Positions 1,472 through 16,182 of a stretch of DNA of 64,000 bases are shown in pieces. The stretch spans positions 128,001-192,000 of IMG/VR virus record IMGVR_UViG_3300021431_004524. The stretch is one strand, 5' to 3'. How positions within the stretch are numbered: the first letter of the stretch is position 1; every line of letters begins with the position of its first letter. The position numbers were made by a program, and so were the translations under genes. The stretch comes from a virus. Taxonomy: Duplodnaviria; Caudoviricetes. Under the pieces are notes generated by a model, which was not told where the DNA came from, searched no databases, and worked only from the letters and a program-made list of their open reading frames with translations.

Positions 1472-1528
1472 TTAACAAAAATTAACAGAAAATATTTGGT
1501 ACTTTCAAAAATTTGTAGTACTTTTGCA
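1472..1528 (+). promoter_or_regulatory. Bacteroidota-type sigma70 promoter driving Y RNA and TROVE gene
   Basis: TTTG (1495) - 20 nt - TACTTTTG (1519); upstream TTAAC-N5-TTAAC. Confidence 0.8.
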
Positions 1529-1543
1529 ACTGAAAAACTAAAA

Positions 1544-1686
1544 TAGTAGTGATTTGAGAGATACTTCGATTGGAATTGTGGGTCTGTGGTTCGAGTCCAC
1601 ATCTGCCGACAAACAGTAATAACAAACGGCAGATAGCTCAGTTGGTAGAGCAACAGTTAAGAATACACTGTCAATGATTTCCTCTA
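1544..1686 (+). ncRNA. YrlA-like Y RNA (permuted tRNA-like domain)
   Basis: Order T-arm (TGTGG TTCGAGT CCACA), acceptor TCTGCCG/loop/CGGCAGA, D-arm (GCTC AGTTGGTA GAGC), inside a terminal stem; directly upstream of Ro60/TROVE gene. Confidence 0.85.
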
Positions 1687-1747
1687 TTTTTTAATATAAT
1701 AAGTAAAAAATTTCTTTTAATAATAACAAATTAAATAGTGATAGAAT

Positions 1748-3412
1748 ATGGCAAAGTTTAATTCAAAGAAAGAGGCTGTAAAGCCAACAGTGATTAACGA
1801 GATGGGTGAGAAGGCTTTTGAACTTACAGCAAAGGAAAATCTCGTACAGAGTGTGTTAACCACATTCCTTCAGGGACAGTACTATGAAAGTGAGTCAGAG
1901 GAAATGAAGAAAATCCTCGATTGTGTTGAGAAGGTTGACCCATTGTTCGTGGCAAAACTTGCATTATATGCACGTAATGAGGGTAATATGAGGTCATCAA
2001 GCCATCTGCTTGGTGCAGCATTGGCAAAGCATATTGCCGGTCAGGAATATGCCGCACGTTTCTATAACAAACTCATTGTACGTCCGGATGATATGTCTGA
2101 GGTGCTTTCATGCTATGGTTCATTGAACGGTATGAATCTTACCGATAAGTCACTTCGTAAGATTCCAAACTCTATCAAGAAGGGATTCAAGGCTGCACTT
2201 GAGCGTCTCGATGCTTATCAGATTGACAAATATAAGATGAATAGCCGTCAGGTGAAACTCATTGACCTTGTTAACCTGTTGCACCCAACACCAACACAGA
2301 AGAATAAGGAGGCATATAAGCGTCTTATCAACGGTGAGTCTCTTGCTGACCTTTATGAGAGCAAGGTGTTGGAGAAGGAAATGTCAAAGGGTGGCCAGAC
2401 AGCCAAGACTGAGGAAGAGAAGACTGCCGCCAAGGAGGAAGCAATCTCTTCTGTTCTTGACAATGTTAAGGGTATGCCAATTTTCAACTTGCTTCGCAAC
2501 TTGCGTAACATTATCCTCTATGCGCCAAACCGTATCGACGATGCTATTACACAGTTGACTACAAGGGAGAAGATTGTCAATTCAAGACTGCTTCCATTCC
2601 GTTTTGCAACTGCATACAATGAAATTGAGAATATGAGTTATGAGGCAAAGAAGCCTTCATCTTCAATCGCTTTGGAAAGCGAAATCAGTAAGATGAAACT
2701 CACTCAGAACGAGTTCGCTACTATTAAGGCAAAGGTTCTTAAGGCTCTTGAAGATGCACTTGAGTATGCTTGTGAGAATATTCCTGAGTTGGAAGGAGGA
2801 ACCTACATCCTTTGCGATGACAGTGGTTCAATGAGAGGTGATATGGGTGGTCATTCACGTGTATCTGCATTCTCAAAGACGACATCATCTACAATTGGTC
2901 ACTTGTTTGCCGCAATGGTCGGTTGGAAACAGAAGGATATTTATATCGGTCTGTTCGGTGATAGGCTCATTCCAGTGGAAGTTGACCGTTCTAAGAGGAT
3001 GCTCGATTTCTGTAACTACATGGACAGTAAGGGTGGCTCATGTGGCGGTGGTACAGAGGCCGGTATTTATGACTTCCTTCGTCAGTGCATTAAGGAGAAG
3101 AAGAAGGTGGATAACGTAATCGTCTTCTCTGACTGTCAGATTGGTTCCGGTGCAGAGACCGCATGGTATGGCGTGGATAGTAGTGACCGTAGTGGACGCT
3201 TCCAGGACTTGTTCAAGGAGTTCAAGAAGATTAACCCAATGTGTAACTTCATTGTGTGCAATCTTCGTTCGGCTAAGGGCAACTCAGTATTCCACAAGTC
3301 ACAGAGAATACTTAACATCGCTGGTTGGAGTGAGAAGATTTTCGACGTGATTAAGTCCAATACCGTTGGTATGGAGGCAATCATCAAGAAGATTGAAGCC
3401 ATCGAGATATAA
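1748..3412 (+). CDS. TROVE/vWA domain protein (Ro60/Rsr ortholog)
   Basis: KLALYARNEGNMRS, RPDDMSE, LVNLLHP, LLRNLRNI, RLLPFRF; vWA MIDAS DDSGSM. Confidence 0.92.
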   Translation: MAKFNSKKEAVKPTVINEMGEKAFELTAKENLVQSVLTTFLQGQYYESESEEMKKILDCVEKVDPLFVAKLALYARNEGNMRSSSHLLGAALAKHIAGQEYAARFYNKLIVRPDDMSEVLSCYGSLNGMNLTDKSLRKIPNSIKKGFKAALERLDAYQIDKYKMNSRQVKLIDLVNLLHPTPTQKNKEAYKRLINGESLADLYESKVLEKEMSKGGQTAKTEEEKTAAKEEAISSVLDNVKGMPIFNLLRNLRNIILYAPNRIDDAITQLTTREKIVNSRLLPFRFATAYNEIENMSYEAKKPSSSIALESEISKMKLTQNEFATIKAKVLKALEDALEYACENIPELEGGTYILCDDSGSMRGDMGGHSRVSAFSKTTSSTIGHLFAAMVGWKQKDIYIGLFGDRLIPVEVDRSKRMLDFCNYMDSKGGSCGGGTEAGIYDFLRQCIKEKKKVDNVIVFSDCQIGSGAETAWYGVDSSDRSGRFQDLFKEFKKINPMCNFIVCNLRSAKGNSVFHKSQRILNIAGWSEKIFDVIKSNTVGMEAIIKKIEAIEI

Positions 3413-10636: not shown

Positions 10637-11308
10637 ATGGATTCAAGTTGGAAATACCCAAGAACGTTTCACGTCCCGTTCTCAGAAGGGTTACAGAATG
10701 ATGACAGACGTGTTGATGACGATTGGTTTTCCTATTTGAAGGGAAAGGAACTTATTCTTAGCGAAAAATGCGACGGTGAGAATAATTCTATATCTCGTTA
10801 TGGTGTTTATGCTCGTTCTCATGCAGCACCTACAAGGAATCCTTGGTCAATAAACCTATGGGGAAATGACGGACTTTATTGGAGAGTTAAGGATTTGATT
10901 GGTGAAGATGAAATGATTTACGGTGAGAACTTATATGGTGTTCATTCAATTGAATATAACAGGTTGAAGGAATATTTCCATATGTTTGCCGTAAGGGATG
11001 AAGAGAAATGGTATTCTTGGGATGATGTTTCAGAAATGGCACAGATTCTTGATTTGCCGACTGTTCCTGTATTGGAAAGACGTTCATTTGACACTGAGGA
11101 TGAATTAAAGGAACGTGTATTATATTGGATGACGCAAGGCAGTAGGTATGGTGATACTATTGAGGGTGTTGTTATCCGTAATGCAGATAGTTATCCGATT
11201 GATGAGTTTTGCCATAATGTTGTGAAGTATGTACGTAAGAATCATGTTCAGACTGACCAATTTTGGGCAAAGAATTGGAGAAAAGCAAAAATAACGGAAT
11301 ATTATTAA
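10637..11308 (+). CDS. ATP-dependent RNA ligase (Rnl2-like family)
   Basis: KYPRT.H, motif I EKCDGEN, YGENL, EGVVIR, KYVR. Confidence 0.88.
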   Translation: MDSSWKYPRTFHVPFSEGLQNDDRRVDDDWFSYLKGKELILSEKCDGENNSISRYGVYARSHAAPTRNPWSINLWGNDGLYWRVKDLIGEDEMIYGENLYGVHSIEYNRLKEYFHMFAVRDEEKWYSWDDVSEMAQILDLPTVPVLERRSFDTEDELKERVLYWMTQGSRYGDTIEGVVIRNADSYPIDEFCHNVVKYVRKNHVQTDQFWAKNWRKAKITEYY

Positions 11309-11361
11309 CAACTTTTAATGAAAAATATTTGTGTATTTCAATGATTATTTGTACTTTTGCA
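11305..11361 (+). promoter_or_regulatory. Bacteroidota-type promoter for tnpB
   Basis: TTTG-N20-TACTTTTG. Confidence 0.7.
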
Positions 11362-11383
11362 CTCAGTTAATGAAAAAAAAATT

Positions 11384-12589
11384 ATGAAAAGAGGTTATAA
11401 GTATCGTATTTATCCAACAGAAGAGCAGAAGAATTATTTTAAGGTATGTTTTGCAGCAAACAGATGGTTTTGGAATTATGCTTTAGATAAAATCAATGCA
11501 CAATATGAAAAAGATAAAACACATTTGTCAGCACAATATAAGATTGCACGTGATTTACCATCCTTAAAAAAAGAGGAAAGTACATGTTGGATTGGGCACT
11601 GTGATGCAATGTCTTTTATTTACACGGCGCAAGCACTTGATGCATCTTTTAAGAAGTTTTTCAAGAAAGAAGGTGGGTTTCCAAAATATAAGTCGGCTAA
11701 ATATGATAATTCTTATACAATACAAATACAAGAAAAAGGTAAAACAATCATTGATTGGGATAAATCAATGATAAGAATAGGTAAAGCCGGCGATGTAAGT
11801 ATTGTTTTGCATAGGAAATTTAATGGGGTTATTAAATCGGTAACAGTTTCCAAGAAGAGTTTTGACTATTACGAAGTTTCACTTCTTGTTGATGATAATT
11901 TCGTCAAGCCGTCCGAAAAACGTATAACTACGTATGATGGTACTGTTGGAATCGACCTTGGGGTAAAATCCGATTCAAATGTAATTTTAACTGATGGCAC
12001 TAAATTTCCTGCAATTGAAGTAGGACGTGAAACTAAACGTATTGCAAGACTTAGACGTAGACTTTCCAAGAAGGAATGGAAAAAAACCGGTGAGAAAAGA
12101 TTTTCCAAAAAATATGGTAAGGAAGTTGATGTAAAAGTTCCCTCCAAGAATTACATAAAGTTAAAGAATCGTATTGCGAAACTTGAAGATGAAATTGTCA
12201 GAAAACGTACTTATAATACGCATATGATTACATCTTATGTCGCTAAGAATCCAAACGTCAATACGGTCTGCATTGAAGATTTGAATGTTAAGGGAATGGC
12301 TAAGAACCATCATATTGCAAAGTCCGTAAGTAATGCGAATATGGGTGAGGTTAAAAGGCAACTTGAATATAAATGTGATTGGAATGGAAAGAATCTGGTT
12401 ACTGTTGACAGATTTTATGCAAGTTCACAAATCTGTTCGTGTTGTGGGTTTAAAAACGAAAAGGTGAAGAATTTGTCGGTAAGACAATGGGTCTGTCCGA
12501 ATTGCGGGGTACATCATGATAGGGATGTGAATGCCGCACTTAATATTAAAAATGAAGGATATAGAATTATAACTGAAGGAAAACAGTGA
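11384..12589 (+). CDS. tnpB: TnpB / Cas12f-like RNA-guided RuvC nuclease, catalytically intact
   Basis: YKYRIYPT HTH start; RuvC D (GIDLG), E (IEDL), D (DRDVNAA); CSCC/CPNC Zn finger; likely start ATG 11384; no tnpA nearby. Confidence 0.92.
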   Translation: MKRGYKYRIYPTEEQKNYFKVCFAANRWFWNYALDKINAQYEKDKTHLSAQYKIARDLPSLKKEESTCWIGHCDAMSFIYTAQALDASFKKFFKKEGGFPKYKSAKYDNSYTIQIQEKGKTIIDWDKSMIRIGKAGDVSIVLHRKFNGVIKSVTVSKKSFDYYEVSLLVDDNFVKPSEKRITTYDGTVGIDLGVKSDSNVILTDGTKFPAIEVGRETKRIARLRRRLSKKEWKKTGEKRFSKKYGKEVDVKVPSKNYIKLKNRIAKLEDEIVRKRTYNTHMITSYVAKNPNVNTVCIEDLNVKGMAKNHHIAKSVSNANMGEVKRQLEYKCDWNGKNLVTVDRFYASSQICSCCGFKNEKVKNLSVRQWVCPNCGVHHDRDVNAALNIKNEGYRIITEGKQ

Positions 12590-15176: not shown

Positions 15177-15256
15177 TTAACGAAAAAAGTTTGGTAGTTT
15201 CAGAAATATGTAGTATCTTTGCACTGTCAAACGATGACAAAGAGTTCTTTAATATA
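15177..15256 (+). promoter_or_regulatory. Bacteroidota-type promoter plus boxA-like motif for the Y-RNA cluster
   Basis: TTTG(15190)-N20-TATCTTTG(15214); GAGTTCTTTAATAT at 15242. Confidence 0.7.
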
Positions 15257-15284
15257 TTTATAATGTAGAAAACAAAAAAATTAC

Positions 15285-15362
15285 GAATAGTGATGTGAGA
15301 GTTACTTCGATAAAATAGTGTGGATATTTTCAATCAAAACTCACTCTCGCTGTTTTTCTTTC
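15285..15362 (+). ncRNA. minimal Y-RNA-like stem (no tRNA domain)
   Basis: TAGTGA-GTGAGAG-TTACTTCGA ... CTCTCGC-TTTTCT. Confidence 0.7.
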
Positions 15363-15385
15363 GTTTTTTTTTTTTAAGATATAAG

Positions 15386-15528
15386 TTGGTAGTGAAGTTA
15401 AGGGTTACTTCGATTAATTATTGGTTCGAATCCAATAGATTCCGTTTGGGAATTTTGGCGAAAAGGTTAAACGCGAAACACTTGAAATGTTTTTTAGACA
15501 GAAACTCACCCTTGCTGTGATTCTCCAA
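15386..15528 (+). ncRNA. Y-RNA-like RNA with tRNA domain opened at the variable loop (T-acceptor-D-anticodon TGA)
   Basis: ATTGG TTCGAAT CCAAT; ATTCC/GGAAT; GCG..CGC; AAACA CTTGAAA TGTTT; stem AAGGG/CCCTT. Confidence 0.75.
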
Positions 15529-15538
15529 TTTTTTTATA

Positions 15539-15678
15539 CGGGCGTAAAGTTTAGAAAAAGAAATTTACTGAAGGTATTTTCTTTGATTTTTCAATAGTGA
15601 ACTTTACAGTTACTTCGAATGGTTAAAACGTTATCCTGTCAAGATAAAGATTCTGGGTTCGACTCCCAGTACGCCCGC
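15539..15678 (+). ncRNA. tRNA-Asp(GTC) body with a circularly permuted Y stem inserted in the D-loop
   Basis: CGGGCGT/ACGCCCG, TTATC CTGTCAA GATAA, T-arm; Y 3' strand precedes 5' strand, closed by TTGA-TTTT-TCAA. Confidence 0.75.
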
Positions 15679-15683
15679 AAACA

Positions 15684-15814
15684 ACAAGTAGTGACAGAAG
15701 AGTTACTTCGATTTTTTAGCTAAGTTGGTTATAGCACAAAACAGTTAATTTTGGTGACCGGGGTTCGAGTCCCCGAAGAATCTATTTTGTAATACTCTTC
15801 TAATTTTCTCTTGT
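15684..15814 (+). ncRNA. Y-RNA-like RNA enclosing a whole tRNA-Asn(GTT)-like cloverleaf (15710-15783)
   Basis: Stem AGAAGAGT/ACTCTTCT; CAAAA CAGTTAA TTTTG; CGGGG TTCGAGT CCCCG. Confidence 0.78.
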
Positions 15815-15849
15815 TTTTCTTTTGAAAGTAGTATGTATTTATAAGAAAT

Positions 15850-15986
15850 ATGCAGTAGTGACGTGACTGTTACTTCGATAACATTTAGACAAGTGGTTAA
15901 GTCGCAATTTTTGGGTAATTGAGAACGCCGGTCCAATTCCGGCAATGTTGTAAACAATAGCAAACAGTCACAAATTTTCTCTGTAT
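15850..15986 (+). ncRNA. Y-RNA-like RNA enclosing a whole tRNA-Pro(TGG)-like cloverleaf (15879-15951)
   Basis: Stem GTGACTG/CAGTCAC; CAATT TTTGGGT AATTG; GCCGG TCCAATT CCGGC. Confidence 0.78.
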
Positions 15987-15995
15987 TTTTATGAT

Positions 15996-16081
15996 TGGGG
16001 ATTAGTTTAATGGTAAAACGACGGCCTCATAAGCCGGGGACATTTGTGTGCATTGTGTTGGTCCGAATCCAACATCCCCAA
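15996..16081 (+). tRNA. tRNA(CAT) (Met or Ile2) with long variable region
   Basis: TGGGGAT/ATCCCCA; CGGC CTCATAA GCCG; ~19-nt variable region. Confidence 0.7.
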
Positions 16082-16182
16082 CATTTTTAGAAAGTTGTCC
16101 CAATATATCGTAGGGAGCATGCAATTGTCTTGAAATACAGACTTTTGCATATTTTATTTTATATATAAAGACTTATTATTAA

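What the first reader, a model, noticed from the sequence alone, without database searches (positions are those of the whole stretch)
15285..15986. Modular Y-RNA/tRNA chimera array: one Ro-binding-like stem grafted onto tRNAs at four different points
Seen: six copies (1544, 15285, 15386, 15539, 15684, 15850) share a scaffold 5'-TAGTGA-[stem]-TACTTCGA...[stem']-TTT(T/C)CT-like pyrimidine run. The stem covaries: TTGAGAG/CTGTCAA, GTGAGAG/CTCTCGC, AAGGG/CCCTT, TTTACAGT/ACTGAAG, AGAAGAG/CTCTTCT, GTGACTG/CAGTCAC. The cargo differs per copy. Copy 1544 replaces the anticodon arm (T-acceptor-D order). Copy 15285 has no cargo. Copy 15386 opens at the variable loop and keeps a TGA anticodon arm. Copy 15539 is a linear tRNA-Asp with the stem circularly permuted into the D-loop and capped by TTGA-TTTT-TCAA. 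Copies 15684 and 15850 enclose whole Asn(GTT)- and Pro(TGG)-like cloverleaves via the acceptor end. The cluster has its own promoter. Established: Ro60/Rsr binds Y RNAs, and YrlA-type Y RNAs mimic tRNA. Inference: a phage Ro60 RNP platform displays several tRNA faces, including intact anticodon loops. These could be decoys or tethers for host anticodon nucleases or tRNA-binding enzymes. I do not know of this multi-permutation arrangement being described.
Basis: partly seen in the sequence, partly recalled or inferred. Interest (0 to 1): 0.92.

Follow-up and report, generated by a model that had tools for sequence, protein, structure and literature searches.

The report
Phage Ro60 partner RNAs carrying tRNAs
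A giant rumen or gut phage encodes six small RNAs that share one strictly conserved "handle", found elsewhere right beside Ro60 ring-protein genes; the handle is joined to tRNA bodies at four different points, an arrangement I found in no published description.

Summary
Six + strand units share one handle: outer stem P1, a bulged U, a 5-bp AGUGA/UUUCU helix with a U.U mismatch, a covarying stem P2, and UACUUCGA.

The cargo is:
- none (15284);
- a YrlA-type T-acceptor-D module (1540, 58 nt upstream of a Ro60/TROVE gene);
- a sealed tRNA with a UGA anticodon arm, joined at the variable arm (15386);
- a tRNA-Asp with normal ends and the permuted handle in its D-loop (15540);
- whole Asn- and Pro-type cloverleaves enclosed through the acceptor end (15681, 15850).

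A covariance model of the handle finds it in all 12 TROVE-encoding phage records searched as whole records. In three complete 414-434 kb genomes its only two matches flank the TROVE gene.

Among near-identical arrays the handle hardly changes (2 of 246 sites vary, against 39 of 300 in the cargo). The anticodon loops do drift: GUU/GCU, UGG/UUG/AGG, 8-nt loops, A33. So these are probably not ordinary decoding tRNAs.

Best reading: these are Y RNA-like partners of the phage Ro60 that display tRNA modules. Binding and function are untested.

This scan has already flagged equivalent arrays on other DNA. I found no published description. Novelty: new variant of a known kind.

The parts
1495..1527 (+). 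Bacteroidota-type promoter (TTTG ... TAnnTTTGC) in front of unit 1 and the TROVE gene
   Evidence: Pattern search: 13 sites, all on the + strand, 0.58 expected.
1540..1690 (+). Unit 1: handle plus T arm, sealed acceptor and D arm (YrlA-type; handle at the anticodon-stem position)
   Evidence: Model R2 scores 45.1 bits, E 1.7e-7. Rfam YrlA scores 34.5 bits, E 4e-6, below its gathering score.
1748..3412 (+). Ro60 homologue (TROVE ring plus vWA domain), 554 aa
   Evidence: Pfam TROVE 59.5 bits. phmmer to phage phiLo Ro60, 8e-11. AlphaFold model pLDDT 78; the 13 best PDB matches are all Ro60, TM 0.53-0.70.
15190..15222 (+). Promoter of the array, same type as at 1495
   Evidence: It is conserved in front of the arrays of relatives.
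15284..15363 (+). Unit 2: handle only, with a short interior (YrlB-like)
   Evidence: R2 scores 71.2 bits, E 2.6e-13.
15386..15528 (+). Unit 3: handle at the variable-arm position; T arm, sealed 7-bp acceptor, D arm, anticodon arm (loop CUUGAAA)
   Evidence: R2 scores 35.4 bits, E 2.5e-5. ARAGORN calls the rotated cargo tRNA-Ser(UGA).
15540..15677 (+). Unit 4: tRNA-Asp(GUC) body with normal 5' and 3' ends. The circularly permuted handle (15555-15618) sits in the D-loop and is capped by a TTGA-TTTT-TCAA hairpin.
   Evidence: ARAGORN calls tRNA-Asp after the insert is removed. Infernal tRNA match at 15619-15670, 31.5 bits. The unit is present in all 6 related arrays that cover it, with zero substitutions in the insert against G001. 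RNA-library contigs keep the insert.
15681..15817 (+). Unit 5: the handle halves enclose a whole tRNA-Asn(GUU)-type cloverleaf (15710-15783, A33). The motif's last two bases, GA, are tRNA bases 1-2.
   Evidence: R2 scores 54.6 bits. tRNA model scores 56.1 bits. ARAGORN.
15850..15986 (+). Unit 6: the handle halves enclose a whole tRNA-Pro(UGG)-type cloverleaf (15878-15952; T-loop with C55)
   Evidence: R2 scores 57.5 bits. tRNA model scores 48.5 bits. ARAGORN.
15996..16082 (+). tRNA-Met(CAU) with an extra arm in the variable region. It follows the array and carries no handle; probably the last gene of the same transcript.
   Evidence: One contig of an RNA library spans unit 6 to this tRNA.

Best explanation
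The six units are genes for Y RNA-like partner RNAs of the phage's own Ro60 (TROVE) protein.

How it probably works:
- The array is transcribed from a host-type promoter as one precursor and cut into RNAs of about 80-150 nt.
- Each RNA folds into the same handle: P1, a bulged U, the AGUGA/UUUCU helix, a 2-4 nt bulge on the 3' strand, P2, and UACUUCGA.
- The handle docks on the Ro60 ring. The tRNA module sticks out.
- Because the handle is joined at the anticodon stem, the variable arm, the D-loop or the acceptor end, each particle leaves a different face of the tRNA shape free.
- The particles then engage tRNA-binding factors of the host or the phage, as tethers, decoys or repair substrates.

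Shown here: the anatomy, the covariation, the co-occurrence with TROVE, the near-absence of sequence change in the handle, and the presence of the array in RNA libraries.

Inferred: Ro60 binding, the processing steps and the cellular partner.
For: 1. The handle structure is supported by covariation. 94.9% of cells are paired against 66.6% in shuffles; 16 of 20 pairs show changes on both sides; slid controls give 36-54%. The conserved helix switches A-U to G-C, or becomes ACUAA/UUUGU, in other lineages.

2. Specificity. Model R2 with filters off finds units 1, 2, 3, 5 and 6 at E <= 2.5e-5; the next match has E 0.8.

3. Link to Ro60.
- All 12 TROVE-encoding phage records searched as whole records (own record G000 plus G001-G011) hold the handle.
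- Three complete 414-434 kb genomes have exactly two matches each, directly flanking the TROVE gene.
- Handles lie directly upstream of TROVE in this window, G005, G011, a Prevotella scaffold and Lachnospiraceae contigs.
- Of 100 control phage loci that carry the exact 5' motif by chance (882 kb), only one has full handles, and its genome also encodes TROVE.

4. The protein is a Ro60 homologue. Its closest solved relative, phiLo Ro60, binds two Y-like RNAs encoded upstream of its gene (PMC12135203).

5. Unit 1 is YrlA-like.

6. Selection pattern.
- Between this phage and G001 there are 0 substitutions in 279 handle sites, against 27 in 303 cargo sites.
- Across 7 close arrays, 2 of 246 handle sites vary, against 39 of 300 cargo sites, p = 9e-9.
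- The tRNA stems change by compensatory pairs.

7. The cargo does not behave like decoding tRNAs.
- Anticodon loops change between near-identical units: GUU/GCU on the same class I body; UGG/UUG/AGG; 8-nt loops; U33/A33.
- In another clade a 131-nt unit is identical between two contigs except at anticodon bases 34-35, GAU against UCU; a third contig has UUU there plus a few other changes.

8. Parts of the array are held by 14 RNA runs among 20 listed runs from 11 studies, and contigs from four different studies lie on it.
Against: - No binding, processing or phenotype data exist for this phage.
- The array lies 12 kb from the TROVE gene.
- The published bacterial Ro60 motif GNCGAAN0-1G is matched only as CGA(A/U), and the G is not invariant in the family.
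- Rfam YrlA does not reach its gathering score.
- Units 5 and 6 score as good tRNAs (56 and 48 bits). Asn(GUU) has no other gene in the record. So release of working tRNAs cannot be excluded.
- The contigs from RNA libraries cannot prove transcription or show true RNA ends.
- The covariation alignment was fitted to the model.
Confidence: 0.72

Rival explanations
1. Units 4-6 are ordinary phage tRNA genes. The handle halves are leader and trailer sequences that pair to guide or time processing by RNase P and 3' nucleases. The released tRNAs decode Asp, Asn and Pro codons.
For: - Units 5 and 6 fit the tRNA model well (56.1 and 48.5 bits).
- Their stems keep pairing through compensatory changes.
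- Asn(GUU) is the only Asn tRNA in the record.
- RNA-library contigs from two studies stop at the discriminator base of tRNA-Asp, 15677.
Against: - Anticodons differ between otherwise near-identical orthologous units. One variant is GCU on a class I body; by established knowledge seryl-tRNA synthetase needs the long variable arm, so that RNA could not be charged as Ser.
- 8-nt loops, A33 and C55 occur.
- Asp, Pro and Ser(UGA) already have separate GC-rich tRNA genes in the same phage.
- The handle is far more conserved than the tRNA bodies, which is unexpected for a discarded leader.
- The same handle occurs without any tRNA, and next to TROVE genes.
- The D-loop insert of unit 4 cannot be removed by end processing, and the contigs keep it.
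Confidence: 0.12
2. Dual use. The chimeras are both Ro60 ligands and chargeable tRNAs. For example, unit 4 with its free CCA end would couple Ro60 to aminoacyl-tRNA synthetases, EF-Tu or ribosomes.
For: - Unit 4 keeps a 7-bp acceptor stem, discriminator G, G18 G19 and a normal T arm.
- M. smegmatis YrlA is cut by RNase P and receives CCA (PMC4201824).
- In one contig the neighbouring tRNA-Met carries a non-templated C, as expected after CCA addition.
Against: - There are no data on charging.
- A 64-nt insert in the D-loop sits at the tRNA elbow, which many tRNA-binding factors use.
- U33 varies to A33 in unit 4 of three related arrays.
Confidence: 0.08
3. The handle serves something other than Ro60: another protein's binding site, a transcription insulator or terminator, a ribozyme, or a mobile insertion. 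Its nearness to TROVE genes is hitch-hiking.
For: - Each unit ends in a U run after P1, which resembles a terminator.
- The site between units 5 and 6 takes different inserts in relatives, so cassettes do move.
Against: - In three genomes of more than 400 kb the only two handle matches flank the TROVE gene.
- The handle tracks the TROVE clade with 49-95% identity to this protein, across hosts with different promoter types, and is absent next to TROVE genes of 23-26% identity.
- No Rfam ribozyme or other family matches, even at E <= 10.
- No + strand terminator was predicted.
Confidence: 0.05

Closest known systems
YrlA/YrlB Y RNAs with Rsr (bacterial Ro60) of Salmonella, Mycobacterium smegmatis and mycobacteriophages (Chen et al. 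2014, PMC4201824; Rfam RF02553)
   Same: - Small RNAs encoded beside a TROVE gene on the same strand.
- The paired ends carry a conserved motif containing CGA.
- One RNA has a tRNA-like T-acceptor-D domain (unit 1) and another has none (unit 2).
- There are several Y RNAs per genome.
   Different: - The handle has different sequence and architecture: the UACUUC motif and the AGUGA/UUUCU helix.
- RF02553 reaches only 34.5 of the 69 bits it requires.
- Five of the six units lie 12 kb from the gene, in a tRNA cluster.
- The cargo includes whole cloverleaves with anticodon arms.
- The handle also attaches at the variable arm, the D-loop and the acceptor end.
Deinococcus radiodurans Yrn1/Yrn2 (PMC4201824)
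   Same: In Yrn1 the Ro60-binding stem sits at the acceptor position and an anticodon-like arm is present, as in units 5 and 6. These Y RNAs are made from one precursor together with a tRNA.
   Different: The Yrn1 'anticodon' loop has 6 nt, and Yrn1 has no full D arm. Here complete tRNAs are nested inside the handle, and several topologies coexist in one array.
Thermus phage phiLo Ro60 with Yrl1/Yrl2 (PMC12135203; PDB 9KOP, 9L5Y)
   Same: It is the closest solved relative of the window's protein. It is a phage Ro60 shown to bind Y-like RNAs encoded next to its gene.
   Different: The phiLo RNAs are stem-bulge-stem RNAs without tRNA modules. That work studied effects on the host exonuclease PNPase, which were not examined here.
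Bas63 gp130, a Ro60-like protein that counters the ppl defence system (PhageMaP preprint, PMC11482910)
   Same: It is a phage Ro60-like gene directly upstream of a tRNA gene stretch. The authors suggest that some of those 'tRNA genes' may be Y RNAs.
   Different: No RNA was defined or analysed there. The phage group and host differ.

Membership tests
Y RNA (Ro60-associated small RNA) | Encoded with or near a Ro60/TROVE gene, on the same strand | tested here: met
   Unit 1 ends 58 nt upstream of the TROVE start. The same handle flanks or precedes TROVE genes in more than 20 related records.
Y RNA (Ro60-associated small RNA) | The 5' and 3' ends pair into a stem that carries the conserved Ro60-binding motif (GGUCCGA in animals; GNCGAAN0-1G or CGAA in bacteria and phage) | tested here: inconclusive
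   The terminal stems P1 and P2 covary. The motif here is UACUUCGA(U/A), which shares only CGA(A). UACUUC is invariant, while the G is A or U in some relatives.
Y RNA (Ro60-associated small RNA) | Physically bound by Ro60 | not testable with these tools
   This needs immunoprecipitation or a gel-shift assay.
YrlA (Rfam RF02553) | Reaches the family's gathering score | tested here: not met
   Unit 1 scores 34.5 bits (E 4e-6) against 69 required. Units 2-6 give no match.
Ro60 / TROVE protein (ORF 1748-3412) | TROVE HEAT-repeat ring followed by a vWA domain | tested here: met
   Pfam TROVE scores 59.5 bits against a cut-off of 23. vWA_Ro60 scores 21.4, below its cut-off of 27.7. The full-length model aligns over 543-596 columns to all solved Ro60 proteins.
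Canonical decoding tRNA (units 4-6) | Cloverleaf recognised by tRNA models | tested here: met
   Units 5 and 6 score 56.1 and 48.5 bits and are called by ARAGORN. Unit 4 is called only after the insert is removed.
Canonical decoding tRNA (units 4-6) | Universal U33 and U55, a 7-nt anticodon loop, and an anticodon conserved between orthologous genes | tested here: not met
   Unit 5 has A33 and unit 6 has C55. Orthologous units show GUU/GCU, UGG/UUG/AGG, 8-nt loops and A33.
tRNA intron (insert of unit 4) | Removed from the RNA; in bacteria, a group I intron in the anticodon loop | tested here: not met
   The insert lies in the D-loop. No Rfam intron matches. RNA-library contigs from three studies run through it without a joint.
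Circularly permuted tRNA gene (red-alga type; units 1 and 3) | The 3' half lies before the 5' half, and processing through a circular intermediate yields a normal tRNA | not tested
   The order of arms is permuted. But the acceptor is sealed by a 5-nt loop without CCA, and the ends are held in the handle. No processing data exist.

The most novel reading that the evidence does not exclude
The phage Ro60 particle is a display platform for real anticodon stem-loops. The frozen handle loads each RNA onto Ro60. The anticodon loop is the exchangeable 'bait' that meets host factors which read anticodon loops, such as defence nucleases that cut tRNAs, or tRNA-modifying enzymes.

The observed switches at loop positions 33-36 would then be the trace of an arms race. 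These switches are G-U-N types in units 4 and 5 and in an extra unit of relatives, G36-G37 types in unit 6, and GAU/UCU/UUU in another clade.
Probability: 0.18. Interest if true: 0.9.

Novelty: new variant of a known kind. Interest (0 to 1): 0.7.

Why it matters
What the tRNA-like domain of bacterial Y RNAs does is still an open question.

This family offers a natural series. One constant Ro60-type handle is joined to tRNA bodies at four positions, with full anticodon arms whose triplets change between close relatives. That turns the question "which face of the tRNA matters, and to whom" into something testable with a handful of RNAs and one protein.

It also means that some "tRNA genes" annotated in large phages are probably not decoding tRNAs. 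One phage Ro60-like protein is already reported to counter a defence system (PMC11482910), so these RNAs may be part of a phage counter-defence or tRNA-maintenance device.

Tried and rejected
- An exact-pattern scan of viral contigs for the 5' half gave 115 or more single chance matches and was not informative by itself. I reused those loci as a control.
- Duplex-energy and loose descriptor searches for the 3' half did not separate real units from chance matches.
- RNAalifold on a raw MAFFT alignment of 11 short units found no structure, because the 3' halves were misaligned. I solved this by seeding a model from 6 sequences.
- Test for excess variation in the anticodon loops: in this array 6 of 28 loop sites vary against 39 of 300 other cargo sites, p = 0.25, not significant. 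I claim only that the loops are not conserved.
- Parts of the stretch without contig cover (15150-15275, and beyond 16112) and low-share runs are not used as evidence.
- The handle-linked tRNAs are not recent copies of the phage's free Asp, Pro or Ser genes.
- The anticodon-loop inserts of five other tRNAs in the window do not match the handle model.
- A search for more copies of the unit 6 anticodon arm in viral contigs found only G001.
- A search for the L120-type unit found only the four contigs already known, plus unrelated tRNA-Gly genes.
- The Annual Review on bacterial Ro60 (PMC10870794) is not held in the library.

Full report
**Observation.** The pattern TAGTGA-N(7-10)-TACTTCGA occurs six times in the window, always on the + strand, where shuffles give none. 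The whole 235-kb phage record has no further copy. ARAGORN and Infernal find tRNA-Asn(GUU) at 15710-15783 and tRNA-Pro(UGG) at 15878-15952, each between the two halves of a unit. They also find a partial tRNA at 15619-15670.

**Anatomy of the handle.** I compared the six units with relatives. From outside to inside the handle is:
- a variable outer stem P1;
- one bulged U;
- a conserved 5-bp helix AGUGA/UUUCU with a central U.U mismatch;
- a 2-4 nt bulge on the 3' strand;
- a variable 7-9 bp stem P2;
- on the 5' strand, (U/A)UACUUCGA facing an A-rich 3' strand.

I seeded a covariance model from six short relatives and refitted it on 20 sequences.
- 94.9% of cells are paired, against 66.6% after shuffling.
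- 16 of 20 pairs show changes on both sides.
- Slid controls give 36-54%.
- That alignment was fitted to the model, so these figures lean towards it.

The first pair of the conserved helix switches between A-U and G-C. In Lachnospiraceae-associated copies the helix is ACUAA/UUUGU, again with the U.U mismatch. With filters off, the model finds units 2, 6, 5, 1 and 3 at 71 to 35 bits (E <= 2.5e-5). The next match in 64 kb has E 0.8.

**Cargo.**

| Unit | Span | Cargo | Handle position |
|---|---|---|---|
| 1 | 1540-1690 | T arm, sealed acceptor, D arm; weak Rfam YrlA match (34.5 bits, gathering score 69) | anticodon stem |
| 2 | 15284-15363 | none | - |
| 3 | 15386-15528 | T arm, sealed 7-bp acceptor, D arm, anticodon arm; rotated in silico, ARAGORN calls tRNA-Ser(UGA) | variable arm |
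| 4 | 15540-15677 | tRNA-Asp(GUC) body with normal ends | 64-nt insert (15555-15618) in the D-loop |
| 5 | 15681-15817 | complete Asn-type cloverleaf | acceptor end |
| 6 | 15850-15986 | complete Pro-type cloverleaf | acceptor end |

- The insert of unit 4 contains, in permuted order, the P2 3' strand, UUUCU, a 4-bp P1 closed by UUUU, the bulged U, AGUGA, the P2 5' strand and the UACUUCGA motif.
- In unit 5 the last two bases of the motif are tRNA bases 1-2.
- Unit 5 has A33 and unit 6 has C55.

Relatives show the same topologies with other anticodon loops: UUU, GCA, UCC, GAU, UCU and UGG. In some of them the motif's UUCG pairs with CGAA after the T arm and so replaces the acceptor stem.

**Link to Ro60.** ORF 1748-3412 matches Pfam TROVE. 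Its best match among solved proteins is phage phiLo Ro60. It folds into a model (pLDDT 78) whose 13 best PDB matches are all Ro60 proteins over their full length.

The handle model hits all ten relatives' records that were retrieved through the TROVE gene and searched whole.
- In three complete genomes of 414-434 kb, the only two matches lie within about 40 nt of the start and the stop of the TROVE gene.
- In others, units lie directly upstream, or in arrays 5-11 kb downstream on the same strand.

Control: 100 phage loci (882 kb) carry the exact 5' motif by chance. Only one of them holds full handles, and there they form an array directly upstream of another TROVE gene.

TROVE genes 50-62% identical to this one, on a Prevotella scaffold and on Lachnospiraceae contigs, have one or two handles just upstream. 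Paenibacillus TROVE genes at 23-26% identity have none. So the handle tracks one clade of Ro60 proteins.

**Selection pattern.**
- Against the closest relative, G001, the handle parts show 0 substitutions in 279 sites. The tRNA cargo shows 27 in 303 and the promoter-leader 23 in 133.
- Seven rumen and gut metagenome contigs carry the array. Across the close set, 2 of 246 handle sites vary against 39 of 300 cargo sites (p = 9e-9).
- Cargo stems change by compensatory pairs, so the tRNA shape is kept.

The anticodon loops are not kept:
- Unit 5 is GUU or GCU on an otherwise identical class I body, and has A33 or U33.
- Unit 4 has U33 or A33.
- Unit 6 reads UGG, UUG or AGG, or has an 8-nt loop.
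- An extra unit between units 5 and 6 in three contigs reads GUU, AUC or GUA.
- In a 100-kb phage clade, one 131-nt unit is identical between two contigs except at anticodon bases 34-35 (GAU against UCU). A third contig has UUU plus a few other changes. The flanking DNA aligned at about 74% identity.

The excess of variable sites in the loops over the rest of the cargo is not significant in this array (6 of 28 against 39 of 300, p = 0.25). A decoding tRNA would keep its anticodon, so the drift itself is still informative. The phage also has separate, GC-rich genes for Asp(GUC), Pro(UGG) and Ser(UGA). Asn(GUU) is present only in unit 5.

**Expression.** Of the 20 public runs (11 studies) listed as holding parts of the stretch, 14 are RNA runs; all are gut or bovine gut metatranscriptomes. 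Contigs from four studies lie on the array.
- Contigs from two studies cover units 3 and 4, and both stop at 15677, the discriminator base of tRNA-Asp.
- Contigs from three studies run through the D-loop insert without a joint.
- One contig joins the 3' end of tRNA-Met, plus a non-templated C (as after CCA addition), to position 15848, one to two bases before P1 of unit 6.

These are contigs, not reads. They are weak hints that the array is transcribed and that RNA ends lie at handle starts and tRNA 3' ends.

**Interpretation.** The simplest account is that these are partner RNAs of the phage Ro60. The frozen handle is the protein-binding module and the tRNA-shaped part is displayed. Attaching the handle at four positions exposes different faces of the tRNA.

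The function is not known. The context is a tRNA-maintenance region: about 24 tRNA genes, tmRNA and an RNA ligase, and, according to an earlier scan note that I did not test, a Thg1-like enzyme. A tether, decoy or repair-platform role towards factors that read tRNAs is therefore plausible.

The main rival is that units 4-6 simply release working tRNAs. This is weakened by the anticodon drift, the non-canonical bases, the redundancy with free tRNA genes, and the fact that the supposed leader is more conserved than the tRNA. It is not excluded.

**Comparison with what is known.**
- Bacterial and mycobacteriophage YrlA carry a tRNA-like domain at the anticodon-stem position.
- Deinococcus Yrn1 has the binding stem at the acceptor position (PMC4201824).
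- A phage Ro60 binds neighbouring Y-like RNAs (PMC12135203).
- A preprint suggests that some tRNA genes next to a phage Ro60-like anti-defence gene may be Y RNAs (PMC11482910).

I found no paper describing whole tRNAs nested in a Y-type handle, attachment at the variable arm or D-loop, or such arrays. Earlier notes of this scan report the same design on other phage DNA, including a close relative of this array, so the theme is recurrent within the scan.

**Limits.** All functional statements are inferred from sequence comparison. Most TROVE-linked records were found through the TROVE gene, so the co-occurrence sample is biased. The chance-motif control only partly offsets this.

Noticed in passing
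window 15996-16082: This tRNA-Met(CAU) has a 16-nt insertion at the variable region relative to the tRNA model, which ARAGORN draws as an extra arm. That is unusual for a CAU tRNA. The same type follows the handle units in relative G002 (L141). In G001 other tRNAs take this place.
   Followed up: partly
window 16082 joined to 15848 (RNA run X3): One contig (depth 5.8) joins the 3' end of tRNA-Met, plus a non-templated C, to the base just before P1 of unit 6. It could be a circular or ligated RNA, or template switching between two RNA ends. It is a single contig in one run.
   Followed up: no
L140:2030-2250 (G001, between units 5 and 6) and L116:2815-2945 (upstream of TROVE in G001): In the closest relative, a structured insert of about 190 nt lies where other relatives carry an extra handle unit. 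A different GC-rich RNA-like stretch of about 130 nt replaces the YrlA-type unit in front of the TROVE gene. Neither matches an Rfam family at gathering score.
   Followed up: partly
window, 13 sites such as 1495, 5683, 11328, 15190, 16575, 32436, 40217: The motif TTTG-N(18-22)-TAnnTTTGC occurs 13 times, all on the + strand, against 0.58 expected. This is a promoter class of the Bacteroidota type that drives many genes of this region.
   Followed up: partly
L148 (- strand) about 1334-1480 (G005): This handle unit has a sealed acceptor loop that begins with ACCA, that is a discriminator base plus CCA, directly after the 3' acceptor strand. It recalls M. smegmatis YrlA, which is cut by RNase P and ends in CCA.
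   Followed up: no
L186:2212-2473 (Lachnospiraceae bacterium A4 scaffold) and L184, L185, L188, L189, L178: Contigs assigned to Firmicutes carry a TROVE gene about 50% identical to this one. Two handle RNAs lie directly upstream. One displays D arm, anticodon arm (loop UUUGGGA) and T arm, with the motif itself acting as acceptor strand. The UUUGGG loop recurs in five lineages on different stems.
   Followed up: partly
window 10637-11308 and 11357-12589: An RNA ligase (PF09414) and a TnpB-type protein lie between the tRNA clusters, upstream of the array.
   Followed up: no
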